Part shown: piece after piece, positions 44,301 to 47,300 of the stretch
Layout of the letters: every line of letters starts with the position of its first letter
Position numbering within the stretch: position 1 is the stretch's first letter
Assembly: GCF_044324785.1 (NCBI RefSeq)
Contig: NZ_CP172127.1
DNA: 64,000 nucleotides
Origin: Escherichia coli
Lineage (GTDB): Bacteria > Pseudomonadota > Gammaproteobacteria > Enterobacterales > Enterobacteriaceae
Reading direction: 5' to 3' (one strand)
Position numbers: made by a program

Positions 44301-47300
44301 AACCATGTCCAGTTGCGACTTACTCACGCCGTCACCGGCGTGGTAGTCTTCGTTGCTGATGTCGAAATAAATTCCCGGTTTCATGCCGCGTCCCTCTGTC
44401 CATCAAGCTGATCAGCCAGATCCCAGCGGGCGATAATTGCCATTGCCTCTCGCCGATAGGCATCCATCAGTTCTTCGAACTCAGGGCTGTCTTTAGCAGC
44501 CTCCAGTACTTCCTGACGAACGCCTTTGCCTGTTACAACGTCGAAAGTTGAGGACAGTTGATGAAGCCGGATACTCTCAATCAGTTCTACTTGTCGGTCA
44601 TATAGCTGTTCTGACAGTCGGTAGTCCTTGTCGAATGCCTGCATGATTTTTTGAAGATTTTTCTGCTGATTAACGTTCATTATCAGCCCTCCCATATCTC
44701 GTTATCGTTGGCCACATCGCGAGCTTCTTTGCTGACGAAAGCCCACTTAATGCCTTCCTGTAAGGTGCGGAACTTCCAGCTCATGAATCCGCATGCAGTA
44801 ACGCAGTACCAACCGTTGATGATTTTCCACTGCATAACTTGTTACCTCGGTCTGTTACCGTTGAGGTAATAATTATGCGTATATGGTTTGATGTCAATAG
44901 ATATGAGTTAAAAAAATTACCCGTTAGGTAATCGAATAGGCAATAAAAAAGCCGCCATAAGGCGGCTTACTTACTGAAAAATATGATTTTATTGTTTGTT
45001 TTTTTCGTTCTGGTTGATGACAAATTCAATGTAACTTTCGATCTTTGCTTTCTCGGTTTCGGGTAACAAAGCGTAGCGCGAGCGGTCATAGTTGATAGTC
45101 GCAGGGTCGTGCGGGTGAATCAGTAATTCATAGCCGTGACGCCCGAATGCGGATGCAACATTCTCCAGGGTGGAAATGGAAACGCTGACCTCATTGTTTA
45201 ACAGGCGGCTGATTGTCACCTGGGCGACGCCGGATGCGCGGTGAAGTTTTCCCTGCGTTGAAAGGTCGCGGCTTTCGCTCATCCAGCGTTCCAGGTTGTG
45301 AGCCGCCAGTTGACCAATGTCGCTTGGTCCGACAGGCTGAAAACCTTCCTGAGAAAGCGAGCGATCGATATCAAGCCAGTTACGGGGTTTATTGGCGGCA
45401 GCTTCAATTTTTCGCGCAACCTGGTCGCCGATAACCTTCTTGCCAAGAGCCCAGCGGTTTACCAGATTTGCCTGAGTTCCAAGTTTTTCAGCCATCCGCG
45501 TCTGAACACCATTGAATTCACGGTCGATCAAGTCGTTGAGATTTTGCCTGCGGACGTCCTGGATACTTTTCATTTTCTGGAAAATCGCCTCATATCTGAA
45601 TCAGAAGATGATTCAATTTAAAGCAATATTACCCAACAGGTAAATGCACCTCATGGGTAACTATCCTTGATTTTTGTTACCTTATAGGTGAATATTTATT
45701 ATCTGAAATAAATATCAGGCAATAGCTATGAGCGATAACGGACATTTCGATTTCAAAAAGCACTGGCTTGCACTTACTCCGGATGAGCGTGAAGCCTTCG
45801 CACAGGAAGCCGGAACGACGAGTCACTATATCCAGACTCACTTAACAGGTAAGCGCAAAATGCCAGGTAAGGTATTGATGGATGGGCTTTTTAAAGCCTG
45901 TAAATCAAGACAATGGCTGCGCTCAAAAGCAGAACTGGCATACTTCTTCTACTCATGATATCCAGCCACAACCCTCTGTAGACCGCCATCCGGCGGTCTT
46001 TTCATATCTATTCGTACCTCAAAGGTAATAAAAAACCAAATATGGTTGATCTTTTTTTTGTGTCAGCACAAAATAACCGTAATCCCAATACTAATAACAG
46101 GGCTTACCATGGAAATCATTACACGTATTGATGCCGCAAAGCGCGGACTTAAACGCTACTACACCGGAAAAACATGTAAGCACGGACATGACAGTGAACG
46201 CTGGGTTTACAACGGACACTGTGTTGAGTGCACCATGGAATCAAACCGTCGTATCAGGGCAGAGATTAAGCAGATCATGATTAATTCCTCCCCACAACAT
46301 TCAAGCTGATAGCGGAGATTAATCATGAGCAGACATGCAACAGATTGGGCCTGGGAGACAGATCCAGGTAGCTCGTCATTAAAGCTCATACTGCTCTCGA
46401 TGGCTGACAGAGCCGATGAATATAACCTCTGCTACCCCAGCATAGAACGCCTCGTTAAAGACACTTGCCTGAATAAAAAAACCGTGCAGGCCGGACTTAT
46501 ATCGCTCATGAAAATGGGGCTTATTTCAGATACCGGGGAGAGAAAGGGAGCGACAAAAAGAGTGCGGGTTTTCTCTCTTAATATAACCAAAAACGGGAAC
46601 ATTAAAGGCAACCGAGAGGGGGGCAATGAACCCGAAAACGGTAATGTTACCGAAAACGGGAATATACCCAAAAACGGGATGTTGAATGATCCCAAAAACG
46701 GGATGTTGAATGATCCCAAAAACGGGATCCAGAACCAGTCATATAACCAGTCATTTAACCAAGAGAGGGAGAGCAGGACAAAAAACGGGGATTCTGTGCA
46801 TCATGACCCCGGCGCAAACAACGCCGTGATGAATAACTTTGTTCCTCCTGGTGGGCCAGGGCAATTAGGCAAATTTGTCATGCATGAACAATGGCAGCCA
46901 TCAGATGACTTTCTTCGGAAAAGCTCATTGCAGGGGATCTACCTGGACAGTCTGCCAACGGCACAGGAACTTGCAGAGTTCAGAATTTACTGGATGGCTG
47001 AGGGTAAGGCATACCATCAGGCACAGTGGGAGCAGAAGCTGGCAAGGCGGCTGCAGATTAGCAGACAGAAGCAATCAACATTACCTGATAACAACGTTCC
47101 GCACTGGAACAGCCCTGAAGCGTGGGAGGATTTCTTGTGAACAACGTTTTTACCGCAATACAAAACCGTGACGGAGAAGCCCTTTCTCGCATGTCAGGTT
47201 ATGAGCATCAGTACACCAACAATGACAACGTAGTGAACATGTCAGCAGAGAGGCTTGTTGATGCCCTTTTCAAACAGCTGAAACAACTGTTTCCGGCGGC

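What the first reader, a model, noticed from the sequence alone, without database searches (positions are those of the whole stretch)
46585..46730. Iteron array inside the O-like replication gene
At least six copies of AAAACGG(G), including two perfect 24-bp tandem repeats, lie within the coding sequence and produce the peptide repeat PKNGMLND. An origin embedded in the initiator gene is the lambda arrangement; the flanking sequence does not show an obvious A/T-rich unwinding element, which could be looked for.
Basis: partly seen in the sequence, partly recalled or inferred. Interest (0 to 1): 0.35.

Follow-up and report, generated by a model that had tools for sequence, protein, structure and literature searches.

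The report
Lambda-style origin iterons in prophage initiator gene
The repeats are real and are almost certainly the binding sites (iterons) of this phiV10-like prophage's own replication initiator, so the gene carries the phage's replication origin inside it, as lambda's O gene does; this is an unannotated example of a known arrangement, not a new kind of system.

Summary
Observation confirmed. Six copies of [A/C]CC[A/G]AAAACGG[G/T] lie at 46586-46729, including a perfect 24-bp tandem, plus a degenerate copy and a non-conserved seventh. They lie inside a 271-aa initiator gene (46325-47140), which is followed by a lambda-P-like loader gene.

Interpretation supported in silico.
- The unit is a dyad DNA motif (GATCCC-AAAAAC-GGGATC), not a peptide motif. 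In relatives from Edwardsiella, Vibrio, Acinetobacter, Burkholderia and metagenomic phages it recurs just after the same N-terminal winged-helix domain, in all three reading frames.
- It is absent from genes that share only the C-terminal domain.
- A blind DNA-pattern scan of viral contigs landed almost only in initiator-gene linkers, including true lambda-O-family genes.
- Lambda's annotated iterons (ATCCCTCAAAACGAGGGA) look alike and sit at the equivalent position.
- The array encodes a predicted disordered linker, and its copy number varies among E. coli prophages.

Differences from lambda: the N-domain scores as HTH_36, not Phage_rep_O, with remote homology only. The C-domain is DnaT-like. 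There is no strong A/T-rich tract; instead three AACCAGTCAT-type 12-mers (46731-46766) form a modest low-stability zone.

No binding or origin activity was tested. New member of a known kind; interest moderate.

The parts
46325..47140 (+). Replication initiator gene (271 aa): N-terminal winged helix (HTH_36), disordered linker, C-terminal DnaT-like domain
   Evidence: ORF list. Pfam HTH_36 at aa 18-67 (E 1.8e-10) and DnaT at aa 184-252 (E 1.1e-15). phrog_1032 'replication initiation protein', E 1e-108. AF2 model.
46325..46585 (+). Coding region of the N-terminal winged-helix DNA-binding domain (aa 1-87), the presumed iteron reader
   Evidence: AF2 pLDDT 78-93, four helices plus a beta-hairpin wing at 67-85. 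Foldseek matches to MarR-type and Rep winged helices. aa 1-88 hit phrog_678 and phrog_345, which lambda O's N-terminal part also hits.
46583..46600 (+). Iteron 1 (ATAACCAAAAACGGGAAC)
   Evidence: Motif hit at 46586, codon 88, the first residue after the folded domain.
46611..46622 (+). Degenerate iteron relic (ACCGAGAGGGGG), 24 bp after iteron 1 and 21 bp before iteron 2
   Evidence: Read from the sequence. This stretch is the most polymorphic part of the array in close relatives.
46628..46645 (+). Iteron 2 (GAACCCGAAAACGGTAAT)
46646..46663 (+). Iteron 3 (GTTACCGAAAACGGGAAT)
46664..46681 (+). Iteron 4 (ATACCCAAAAACGGGATG)
46688..46705 (+). Iteron 5 (GATCCCAAAAACGGGATG), part of the perfect 24-bp tandem
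46712..46729 (+). Iteron 6 (GATCCCAAAAACGGGATC), with perfect 6-bp inverted arms around AAAAAC
46731..46766 (+). Three 12-mers (AGAACCAGTCAT, ATAACCAGTCAT, TTAACCAAGAGA): the candidate unwinding or second-site element, and the least stable stretch to the right of the iterons
   Evidence: TRF 12-bp array. Nearest-neighbour stability z about 2. Equivalent GAAC/AACC 9-13-bp repeats follow the last iteron in relatives, in two reading frames in Vibrio H20.
46760..46795 (+). Purine-rich tract on the + strand (CAAGAGAGGGAGAGCAGGACAAAAAACGGGGA)
   Evidence: GC skew +0.43 and AT skew +0.58 at 46760-46799. Lambda's A/T-rich region is likewise purine-rich on the same strand.
46782..46788 (+). Seventh AAAACGG copy, probably not part of the element
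   Evidence: 46785 is polymorphic (A, C or G) in 32 of 46 unique close relatives. It lacks the CC left arm.
46874..47080 (+). Coding region of the DnaT-like C-terminal domain (aa 184-252)
   Evidence: Pfam PF17948. Foldseek to E. coli DnaT 84-153 bound to ssDNA (4ou6): E 9e-7, about 50% identity, TM 0.92-0.94.
47122..47922 (+). Lambda-P-like helicase loader gene (annotated start in phiV10 corresponds to 47137)
   Evidence: Pfam Phage_lambda_P E 1.4e-56. phrog_109 'P-like helicase loader'. phiV10 annotation.

Best explanation
The array at 46583-46729 is the iteron part of the replication origin of a phiV10/phiv142-3-like (Uetakevirus) prophage. It is embedded in the stretch of the initiator gene that encodes a disordered linker.

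Inferred mechanism, by analogy with lambda:
1. Dimers of the initiator's N-terminal winged-helix domain bind the dyad-symmetric units (consensus WWNCC-RAAAAC-GGNWW). Six good units lie at 18- and 24-bp spacing, all in one orientation.
2. The resulting nucleoprotein complex destabilises the adjacent 12-mer and purine-rich zone (46731-46795).
3. The C-terminal DnaT-like domain, by binding single-stranded DNA or by contacting the loader, brings in the P-like loader-DnaB complex encoded next door, and theta replication starts.

What is shown: the anatomy, DNA-level conservation independent of reading frame, exclusive association with the N-domain family, copy-number polymorphism, and resemblance to lambda's annotated iterons.

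What is inferred: binding, melting, helicase loading, and that replication actually starts here.
For: (1) Clustering is far beyond chance.

(2) Gene context is an initiator followed by a P-like loader, downstream of a repressor and cro-like genes, in a phiV10-type prophage.

(3) The motif does not depend on reading frame. EBPR podovirus 1 has six AGTMCCNAAAWCGGNACT copies read as TKNG, SQKR, PKTE, PISD, PENG and PKSG. GF-2 and PPompW read ACCCAAAAACGGGA as TQKR, and Vibrio H20 reads it as DPKT. Of 65 distinct arrays, 32 use two or more frames.

(4) Specificity. Nine of 10 loci with this N-domain have 3-8 copies, all at codons 88-152. Five loci with other N-domains but, in four cases, the same DnaT C-domain have none. 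Shuffles give 0.3 hits per locus.

(5) Blind scan of 2.9 million viral contigs with CCCGAAAACGG-N5-30-CCCGAAAACGG. Of the 80 loaded loci, 71 place the match just after this N-domain in one ORF. Four others are confirmed Phage_rep_O proteins carrying the motif right after the O domain, and most of the rest are cut by contig ends.

(6) Lambda's record annotates four iterons, ATCCCTCAAAACGAGGGA and variants, in three frames, starting two codons after its Pfam domain ends. Here the first iteron starts at codon 88, right after the wing strand.

(7) aa 89-180 are predicted disordered (pLDDT below 50), so protein constraint on this stretch is weak.

(8) Codon choice in the cores is fixed: CCC 4/4, GGG 5/6, AAC 6/6, AAA 4/4, GAA 2/2. 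Usage is mixed elsewhere in the gene.

(9) Module behaviour resembles lambdoid O genes. The N-domain stays 98-99% identical while the part after the array is either about 99% or about 87% identical. Distant relatives share only aa 1 to about 150.

(10) The number of units varies from 5 to 8 or more among E. coli prophages.
Against: In this window all six copies are in frame 0, and two are perfect recent duplicates. The window alone therefore cannot separate DNA-level from peptide-level selection; that argument rests on relatives.

There is no strong A/T-rich DUE next to the array (GC 0.38 against 0.47 for the locus). Intergenic regions at 46000-46060 and 47930-48055 are much less stable.

Polymorphism among close relatives does not significantly spare the cores (4 of 66 core positions against 10 of 78 between cores).

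Direct profile comparison with lambda O is weak (E 0.01, probability 4%).

No experiment on this phage group's origin was found in the literature I could search.
Confidence: 0.75

Rival explanations
1. The repeats are bound by the initiator but are not where replication starts. They could serve autoregulation, copy-number control or exclusion, with strand opening in a neighbouring A/T-rich intergenic region (for example 46000-46060 or 47930-48055).
For: The least stable DNA in the neighbourhood is intergenic, with z of 2.9-4.0. The flank of the array is only modestly unstable. An isolated iteron-like palindrome, AACCAAATATGGTT, sits in the A/T-rich stretch at 46035.
Against: Those A/T-rich stretches coincide with promoter-like and terminator-like sites of the early operon. 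In high-GC relatives the region just after the last iteron is clearly the local GC minimum (Bcep176 0.42 against 0.61; EBPR 0.45 against 0.59), as expected for a DUE placed there. One isolated motif hit per locus is what chance predicts (0.35). In lambda the homologous layout is the origin.
Confidence: 0.13
2. The DNA repeats are a by-product of a repetitive, low-complexity protein linker (xKNGx units) selected at the peptide level, or of neutral slippage (a coding VNTR), with no DNA function.
For: All six copies here are in frame. The 24-bp copies are 100% identical, and copy number varies in multiples of whole units. The linker is disordered.
Against: The same DNA motif is read in all three frames in relatives and yields unrelated peptides. 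The dyad symmetry makes no sense for a peptide. The motif tracks the N-domain, not the linker or the C-domain. Rare CCC and GGG codons are fixed in the cores.
Confidence: 0.05
3. The sites are recognised by another factor (host protein, repressor/Cro, Dam/SeqA via the three GATC sites), or act as an RNA element rather than through the initiator.
For: Three GATC sites lie within 39 bp (46688, 46712, 46726), against about 4 per kb in the window. Minus-strand hairpin-plus-T-run matches lie between iterons.
Against: GATC is not part of the motif in the Vibrio, EBPR or Burkholderia arrays. There is no Rfam match and no DnaA box. The hairpins are a geometric by-product of adjacent inverted arms.
Confidence: 0.05

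Closest known systems
Bacteriophage lambda ori (four iterons inside gene O, followed by an A/T-rich region; O-P-DnaB pathway)
   Same: Both are direct repeats with internal dyad symmetry and an AAAAC centre (lambda ATCCCTC-AAAAC-GAGGGA; here GATCCC-AAAAAC-GGGATC). All copies are in one orientation, spaced about 18-24 bp, and start immediately after the N-terminal winged-helix domain in the DNA encoding the inter-domain linker. A purine-rich strand lies to the right, and a P-type loader gene comes next.
   Different: The CCC...GGG span is 12 nt here and 15 nt in lambda. There are six units rather than four. The N-domain scores as HTH_36, not Phage_rep_O. The C-domain is DnaT-like, not lambda-O-C. 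The 40-bp, 23% GC tract of lambda is replaced by three AACCAGTCAT-type 12-mers at 38% GC.
Uncharacterised Phage_rep_O (PF04492) genes in IMG/VR contigs carrying TTACCCGAAAACGGGTAA iterons (loci L108, L120, L138, L155)
   Same: They share the core CCCGAAAACGG with iterons 2 and 3 here. The position right after the DNA-binding domain and the 21-22-bp period are also similar.
   Different: Their N-domain is a true Pfam O domain, and a lambda-like A-rich tract (ACAAAAGAAAGAAACTATTACAAAAGAAA) follows instead of AACC 12-mers.
DopC/DopE of Cellvibrionales and Oceanospirillales (Brezellec et al. 2017, PMC5509034)
   Same: The two-gene architecture is identical: HTH_36 plus DnaT C-terminal motif, followed by a lambda-P-like protein. 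The authors derive it from lambdoid O and P and report N-terminal homology to O.
   Different: DopCE are resident chromosomal genes, and the authors found no iteron-like sequences in dopC. The gene here is in a prophage and carries a full iteron array.
E. coli primosomal protein DnaT
   Same: The C-terminal domain is about 50% identical to the DnaT ssDNA-binding domain and superposes on it (4ou6, 6aeq).
   Different: The N-terminal half is a sequence-specific winged helix plus an origin-encoding linker. The RefSeq and phage-record names 'primosomal protein' or 'DnaT-like' describe only a quarter of the protein.
Iteron plasmids (pi of R6K, RepA of pPS10/pSC101, TrfA)
   Same: Arrays of initiator-binding direct repeats read by winged-helix domains, with copy number that matters.
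   Different: Plasmid iterons lie outside the rep gene, their Rep proteins have two winged-helix domains, and they usually need DnaA boxes. None was found here.

Membership tests
Lambda-type phage origin (iterons inside the initiator gene) | Four or more direct repeats with internal dyad symmetry inside the initiator ORF | tested here: met
   Six units at 46583-46729; the last is a perfect 6+6 inverted repeat.
Lambda-type phage origin (iterons inside the initiator gene) | Repeats lie in the DNA encoding the linker between the DNA-binding N-domain and the C-domain | tested here: met
   Folded N-domain ends at aa 86, iterons span codons 88-135, and aa 89-180 have pLDDT below 50. Lambda: domain ends at aa 115, iterons at codons 117-144.
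Lambda-type phage origin (iterons inside the initiator gene) | Repeats are conserved as DNA, independent of reading frame | tested here: met
   Met in relatives (three frames). In the window itself all six are in frame 0.
Lambda-type phage origin (iterons inside the initiator gene) | Strongly A/T-rich unwinding region immediately next to the iterons | tested here: inconclusive
   GC is 0.38 in the next 40 bp, against 0.47 for the locus and 0.23 in lambda. Stability z is about 2.
Lambda-type phage origin (iterons inside the initiator gene) | Helicase-loader gene (P type) immediately downstream | tested here: met
   PF06992 E 1.4e-56; phrog_109.
Lambda-type phage origin (iterons inside the initiator gene) | Initiator binds the repeats, and replication starts there | not testable with these tools
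   Needs EMSA or footprinting, ori cloning, and marker-frequency analysis.
Pfam Phage_rep_O (PF04492) initiators | Significant match to PF04492 | tested here: not met
   Only HTH_36 and DnaT were reported at E up to 0.01. Lambda O itself gives PF04492 at E 6e-36.
Pfam Phage_rep_O (PF04492) initiators | Detectable remote homology of the N-domain to lambda O | tested here: met
   aa 1-88 hit phrog_678 (E 4e-9) and phrog_345 (E 5e-7). Lambda O's N-terminal part hits the same two profiles (E 2e-35 and 5e-17). Direct hhalign is weak (E 0.01). HHpred homology is asserted in PMC5509034.
Pfam Phage_rep_O (PF04492) initiators | Lambda-O-type C-terminal (P-binding) domain | tested here: not met
   The C-domain is DnaT-like. 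Relative GF-2 combines this N-domain with a lambda-O-type C-part.
DnaT primosomal protein | DnaT C-terminal ssDNA-binding domain | tested here: met
   PF17948 E 1e-15. Foldseek 4ou6 E 9e-7, about 50% identity.
DnaT primosomal protein | Full-length DnaT architecture (DnaT N-terminal half) | tested here: not met
   The N-terminal half is HTH_36 plus a disordered linker.
Iteron-plasmid replicons | Iterons outside rep, Rep with two winged helices, DnaA boxes | tested here: not met
   The iterons are inside the gene, there is a single winged helix, and there is no DnaA box within one mismatch between 41736 and 48427.

The most novel reading that the evidence does not exclude
The three AACCAGTCAT-type 12-mers right after the last iteron (46731-46766) may be a conserved, sequence-specific second element of this origin class. 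They recur as 3-4 GAAC/AACC repeats at 9-13-bp period in Vibrio, Acinetobacter, Burkholderia and metagenomic relatives, whatever the C-terminal domain. They replace lambda's A/T-rich tract. One possibility is an array of iteron half-sites (GGAAC resembles the right arm of the iterons) onto which the initiator spreads to open DNA that is not particularly A/T-rich, comparable in logic to DnaA-trios. Alongside this, the HTH_36-type and Phage_rep_O-type initiators would form one ancient co-evolving initiator-iteron lineage sharing the CCC-AAAAC-GGG word.
Probability: 0.3. Interest if true: 0.55.

Novelty: new member of a known kind. Interest (0 to 1): 0.4.

Why it matters
It gives a concrete, testable origin for phiV10-type prophages. 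This initiator gene is present in 423 of 5426 complete E. coli genomes, where it is annotated only as 'DnaT-like' or 'primosomal protein'.

It shows that the lambda rule, an origin written into the linker of its own initiator gene, extends to a distantly related initiator class across several proteobacterial orders.

It supplies the phage-side counterpart, with iterons, of the domesticated DopC/DopE helicase-loading pair.

Practical uses include correcting annotation, predicting replication-module incompatibility or exclusion between prophages, and designing phiV10-based reporter or delivery phages without damaging the origin by codon optimisation.

Tried and rejected
(1) Polymorphism test in 50 close relatives. 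Cores are not significantly less variable than spacers (4 of 66 against 10 of 78). The sample is too closely related to be informative. A first attempt was invalid because equal-length recombinant alleles were misaligned.

(2) Direct profile comparison of the N-domain alignment with lambda O gave only E 0.01 and probability 4%. Homology therefore rests on shared PHROG profiles and on a published HHpred statement.

(3) The search for related loci with the five-sequence N-domain alignment returned only near-identical E. coli prophages. That was useful for copy-number variation but not for diversity. Diversity came from tblastn against phage records and a DNA-pattern scan.

(4) Literature searches for phiV10/epsilon15 origins, for the iteron sequence itself, and for HTH_36/DnaT/iteron combinations found no description of this origin. 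The Weigel & Seitz 2006 review of phage replication modules is not in the library, so prior in-silico mention cannot be excluded.

(5) No DnaA box, Rfam family or sigma-70-like promoter was found in the array, and no long inverted repeat apart from the iteron arms.

(6) Acinetobacter phage Phab24 shares the N-domain weakly but has no copy of the motif. It may use other sites.

(7) The seventh AAAACGG copy was considered as a flanking iteron and rejected as non-conserved.
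Full report
**1. What is there**

The stretch 46585-46730 lies inside an ORF at 46325-47140 on the + strand.

AAAACGG occurs seven times on the + strand between 46590 and 46788. The whole 64-kb window has 25 matches, against 12.6 expected.

Tandem Repeats Finder reports three arrays:
- an 18-bp array at 46630-46679
- a perfect 24-bp array at 46667-46728 (2.6 copies, 100% matches)
- a 12-bp array, AACCAGTCATAT, at 46733-46761

Read with their flanks, the six good units are:
- ATAACCAAAAACGGGAAC
- GAACCCGAAAACGGTAAT
- GTTACCGAAAACGGGAAT
- ATACCCAAAAACGGGATG
- GATCCCAAAAACGGGATG
- GATCCCAAAAACGGGATC

They start at 46583, 46628, 46646, 46664, 46688 and 46712. Each has inverted arms around an A-tract, and the last is a perfect 6+6 palindrome with an AAAAAC spacer.

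A degenerate copy (ACCGAGAGGGGG, 46611-46622) fills the 45-bp gap after the first unit.

A stricter 11-mer, [ACT]CC[AG]A[ACT][AT][AT][ACT]GG, hits six times in the array and seven times in the rest of the window on both strands. Shuffles give 0.35 hits per 3.8 kb.

The seventh AAAACGG (46782) lacks the left arm and is mutated in most close relatives. I do not count it.

**2. Context**

The protein has three parts:
- an HTH_36 winged helix (aa 18-67)
- a segment predicted to be disordered (aa 89-180, pLDDT below 50)
- a C-terminal domain about 50% identical to the ssDNA-binding domain of E. coli DnaT

The next gene is a lambda-P-like helicase loader (PF06992, E 1e-56). A two-HTH repressor and a cro-like gene lie upstream.

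The DNA is 97.6-99.8% identical to Escherichia phages phiv142-3, phiV10 and relatives (genus Uetakevirus). None of the phage records I looked at, including the phiV10 RefSeq record, annotates an origin under this gene.

The gene is present in 423 of 5426 complete E. coli genomes, where it is labelled only 'DnaT-like ssDNA-binding domain-containing protein'.

**3. DNA signal or peptide repeat?**

In this window all six units are in frame (TKNG, PENG, TENG, PKNG x3), so the window alone cannot decide. Relatives do.

A tblastn search of phage records shows that the protein is modular. Some phages share only aa 1 to about 150, which covers the N-domain and the repeat zone. Others share only the DnaT-like C-domain.

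In the first group the same DNA word follows the domain, in different reading frames:
- Edwardsiella GF-2 and prophage PPompW read ACCCAAAAACGGGA as TQKR.
- Vibrio H20 reads it as DPKT, followed by five in-frame copies at 24-bp period.
- EBPR podovirus 1 has six copies of AGTMCCNAAAWCGGNACT, read as TKNG, SQKR, PKTE, PISD, PENG and PKSG.
- Burkholderia Bcep176 and three Acinetobacter phages show the same pattern.

Counted with the 11-mer, 9 of 10 such loci carry 3-8 copies, all within codons 88-152. Five loci with other N-domains (lambda, SPN1S, Tyrion, TL-2011b, Rac ydaU) carry none, although four of them have the same DnaT C-domain.

Within the window, codon choice in the cores is fixed: CCC 4/4, GGG 5/6, AAC 6/6, AAA 4/4, GAA 2/2. 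Elsewhere in the gene it is mixed.

The repeated unit is therefore a DNA motif tied to the N-terminal domain.

**4. A blind test**

I scanned 2.9 million viral contigs for CCCGAAAACGG-N5-30-CCCGAAAACGG, with no reference to proteins. This gave 112 stretches. Of the 80 loaded:
- 71 lie in an ORF whose upstream part matches an HMM of the N-domain, with every motif copy 1-87 codons after the domain end.
- Four of the rest are confirmed Pfam Phage_rep_O proteins, and a fifth of the same length looks the same by eye. They carry the motif (for example TTACCCGAAAACGGGTAA at 22-bp period) immediately after the O domain, followed by a lambda-like A-rich tract.
- Most of the remainder are cut by contig ends.

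Among 65 distinct arrays, 32 use two or more reading frames.

**5. Comparison with lambda**

The lambda record annotates four iterons: ATCCCTCAAAACGAGGGA, ATCCCCTAAAACGAGGGA, ATCCCTCAAATTGGGGGA and ATCCCTCAAAACAGGGGG. They lie at codons 117-144 of O, in three reading frames, spaced 20-24 bp. They begin two codons after the end of the Phage_rep_O domain.

The units here share the TCCC...AAAAC...GGGA design and the same position relative to the domain. The CCC-GGG span is 12 nt here and 15 nt in lambda.

On the protein side:
- The N-domain does not reach Pfam PF04492.
- A direct profile alignment to lambda O is weak (E 0.01).
- However, aa 1-88 and lambda O's N-terminal part both hit PHROG profiles 678 and 345.
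- Brezellec et al. (PMC5509034) report HHpred homology between the N-termini of O and of DopC, which has the same HTH_36 plus DnaT_C architecture. They add that dopC lacks iterons.

So the element works like oriλ and is probably a distant evolutionary relative. The protein is not a member of the Pfam O family, and its C-domain is different.

**6. The flank**

Lambda has about 40 bp of 23% GC after its last iteron. Here the next 40 bp are 38% GC, against 47% for the locus.

Nearest-neighbour stability makes 46726-46771 one of the two least stable stretches of the gene, the other being 46565-46606 (z 2.0-2.5). It falls in the least stable 3.4% of 30-mers in the window. Intergenic promoter regions are much weaker still.

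That stretch consists of three 12-mers: AGAACCAGTCAT, ATAACCAGTCAT and TTAACCAAGAGA. Relatives show 3-4 GAAC/AACC repeats at 9-13-bp period in the same place, for example:
- Vibrio: GAACCAGTCAT in two reading frames
- Bcep176: GAACAGTAG x4
- L107: GAACCTATCAAT x3
- L103: GGAACCATAA-type repeats, four GGAACC copies

This holds whatever the C-terminal domain is. In high-GC phages the zone is the local GC minimum (0.42 against 0.61; 0.45 against 0.59). This is my candidate for the unwinding or second-site element, and it is an inference.

There is no DnaA box, Rfam family or promoter-like site in the array. The minus-strand 'terminators' reported there are hairpins formed by adjacent iteron arms.

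**7. Population behaviour**

Among E. coli prophages the number of units varies. PKNGMLND occurs 1, 2, 3, 4 or 7 times, and the 18-bp units also expand. The array length ranges from 120 to 180 nt.

N-domains stay 98-99% identical, while the part after the array is either about 99% or about 87% identical. This places a mosaic joint at or just after the array, as expected if N-domain plus iterons move as one specificity module.

Phages with other N-domains have other repeats at the equivalent place:
- SPN1S: GTCCGC x2 and GCGGAC x2
- TL-2011b: GTAACG x2, then CGTTAC and GTTAC

**8. Verdict**

Binding and origin firing remain untested.

Most likely mechanism (inferred): N-domain dimers bind the six dyad units. 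The complex opens the adjacent 12-mer and purine-rich zone. The DnaT-like domain and the P-like loader then deliver DnaB.

Confidence is 0.75. Main rival (0.13): the sites are bound by the initiator, but opening or initiation occurs elsewhere, or the sites are mainly regulatory. Peptide-only and other-factor readings are unlikely (0.05 each).

This is a new, unannotated member of a known kind. The modest surprises are the breadth of the shared iteron word across two initiator families, and the 12-mer element that replaces lambda's A/T tract.

Noticed in passing
window 46035-46045 (in the A/T-rich stretch 46026-46055): An isolated iteron-like palindrome, AACCAAATATGGTT, matches the 11-mer motif about 550 bp upstream of the array, between a terminator-like hairpin (45980-45999) and the small ORF 46046-46309. 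It could be an autoregulatory site or chance; 0.35 hits per locus are expected.
   Followed up: partly
window 46688, 46712, 46726: Three GATC (Dam) sites lie within 39 bp and overlap the arms of iterons 5 and 6, against a background of about 4 per kb. GATC is not part of the motif in the Vibrio, EBPR or Burkholderia relatives, so this may be specific to the enterobacterial lineage.
   Followed up: partly
L092 (Salmonella phage SPN1S) gene 1330-2145; L094 (TL-2011b) gene 1282-2106: Initiators with the same DnaT C-domain but a different N-domain carry their own repeat sets in the equivalent linker. SPN1S has GTCCGC x2 then GCGGAC x2, and TL-2011b has GTAACG x2, then CGTTAC and GTTAC (two direct plus two inverted in each). 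These are probably their cognate sites.
   Followed up: partly
L093 (Enterobacter phage Tyrion) 1728-1751: A perfect 7-bp tandem, GGATCAG x3.4, sits in the linker of another DnaT-domain initiator with a third type of N-domain.
   Followed up: no
L004/L090 (Vibrio H20, VaK) 661-1228; L005 (AP22) 1-235; L087 (EBPR podovirus 1) 490-1098: DNA methyltransferase genes lie within about 1 kb upstream of the initiator gene in several relatives. A link to origin methylation was not examined.
   Followed up: no
L006-L085 (E. coli prophage loci), region after the array: There are two alleles of the C-terminal part (about 99% and about 87% identical to the window) behind near-identical N-domains and iterons. 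This implies a recombination joint at or just after the array.
   Followed up: partly
window 46649-46660 and literature search: The iteron core ACCGAAAACGG is nearly identical to a papillomavirus E2 binding site (ACCGAAAACGGT, the ACCG-N4-CGGT class). This is almost certainly coincidence, but it is another dyad site with an A-tract spacer read by a dimer at a viral origin.
   Followed up: no
window 46325-47140 annotation in public records: RefSeq and phage records name this gene 'primosomal protein', 'DnaT' or 'pyocin large subunit-like'. Those names reflect only the C-terminal 70 residues and miss the initiator role.
   Followed up: yes
L089 (Acinetobacter phage Phab24) gene 1435-2217: A 93-kb phage has a weakly similar N-domain (44% identity over aa 20-87) but no copy of the iteron motif and no obvious repeats in the linker.
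   Followed up: no
L092 (SPN1S) 2145-2610: No P-like loader gene follows the SPN1S initiator. The next gene, at 2266-2610, is annotated only as a hypothetical protein, unlike phiV10 and Tyrion in the same genus.
   Followed up: no
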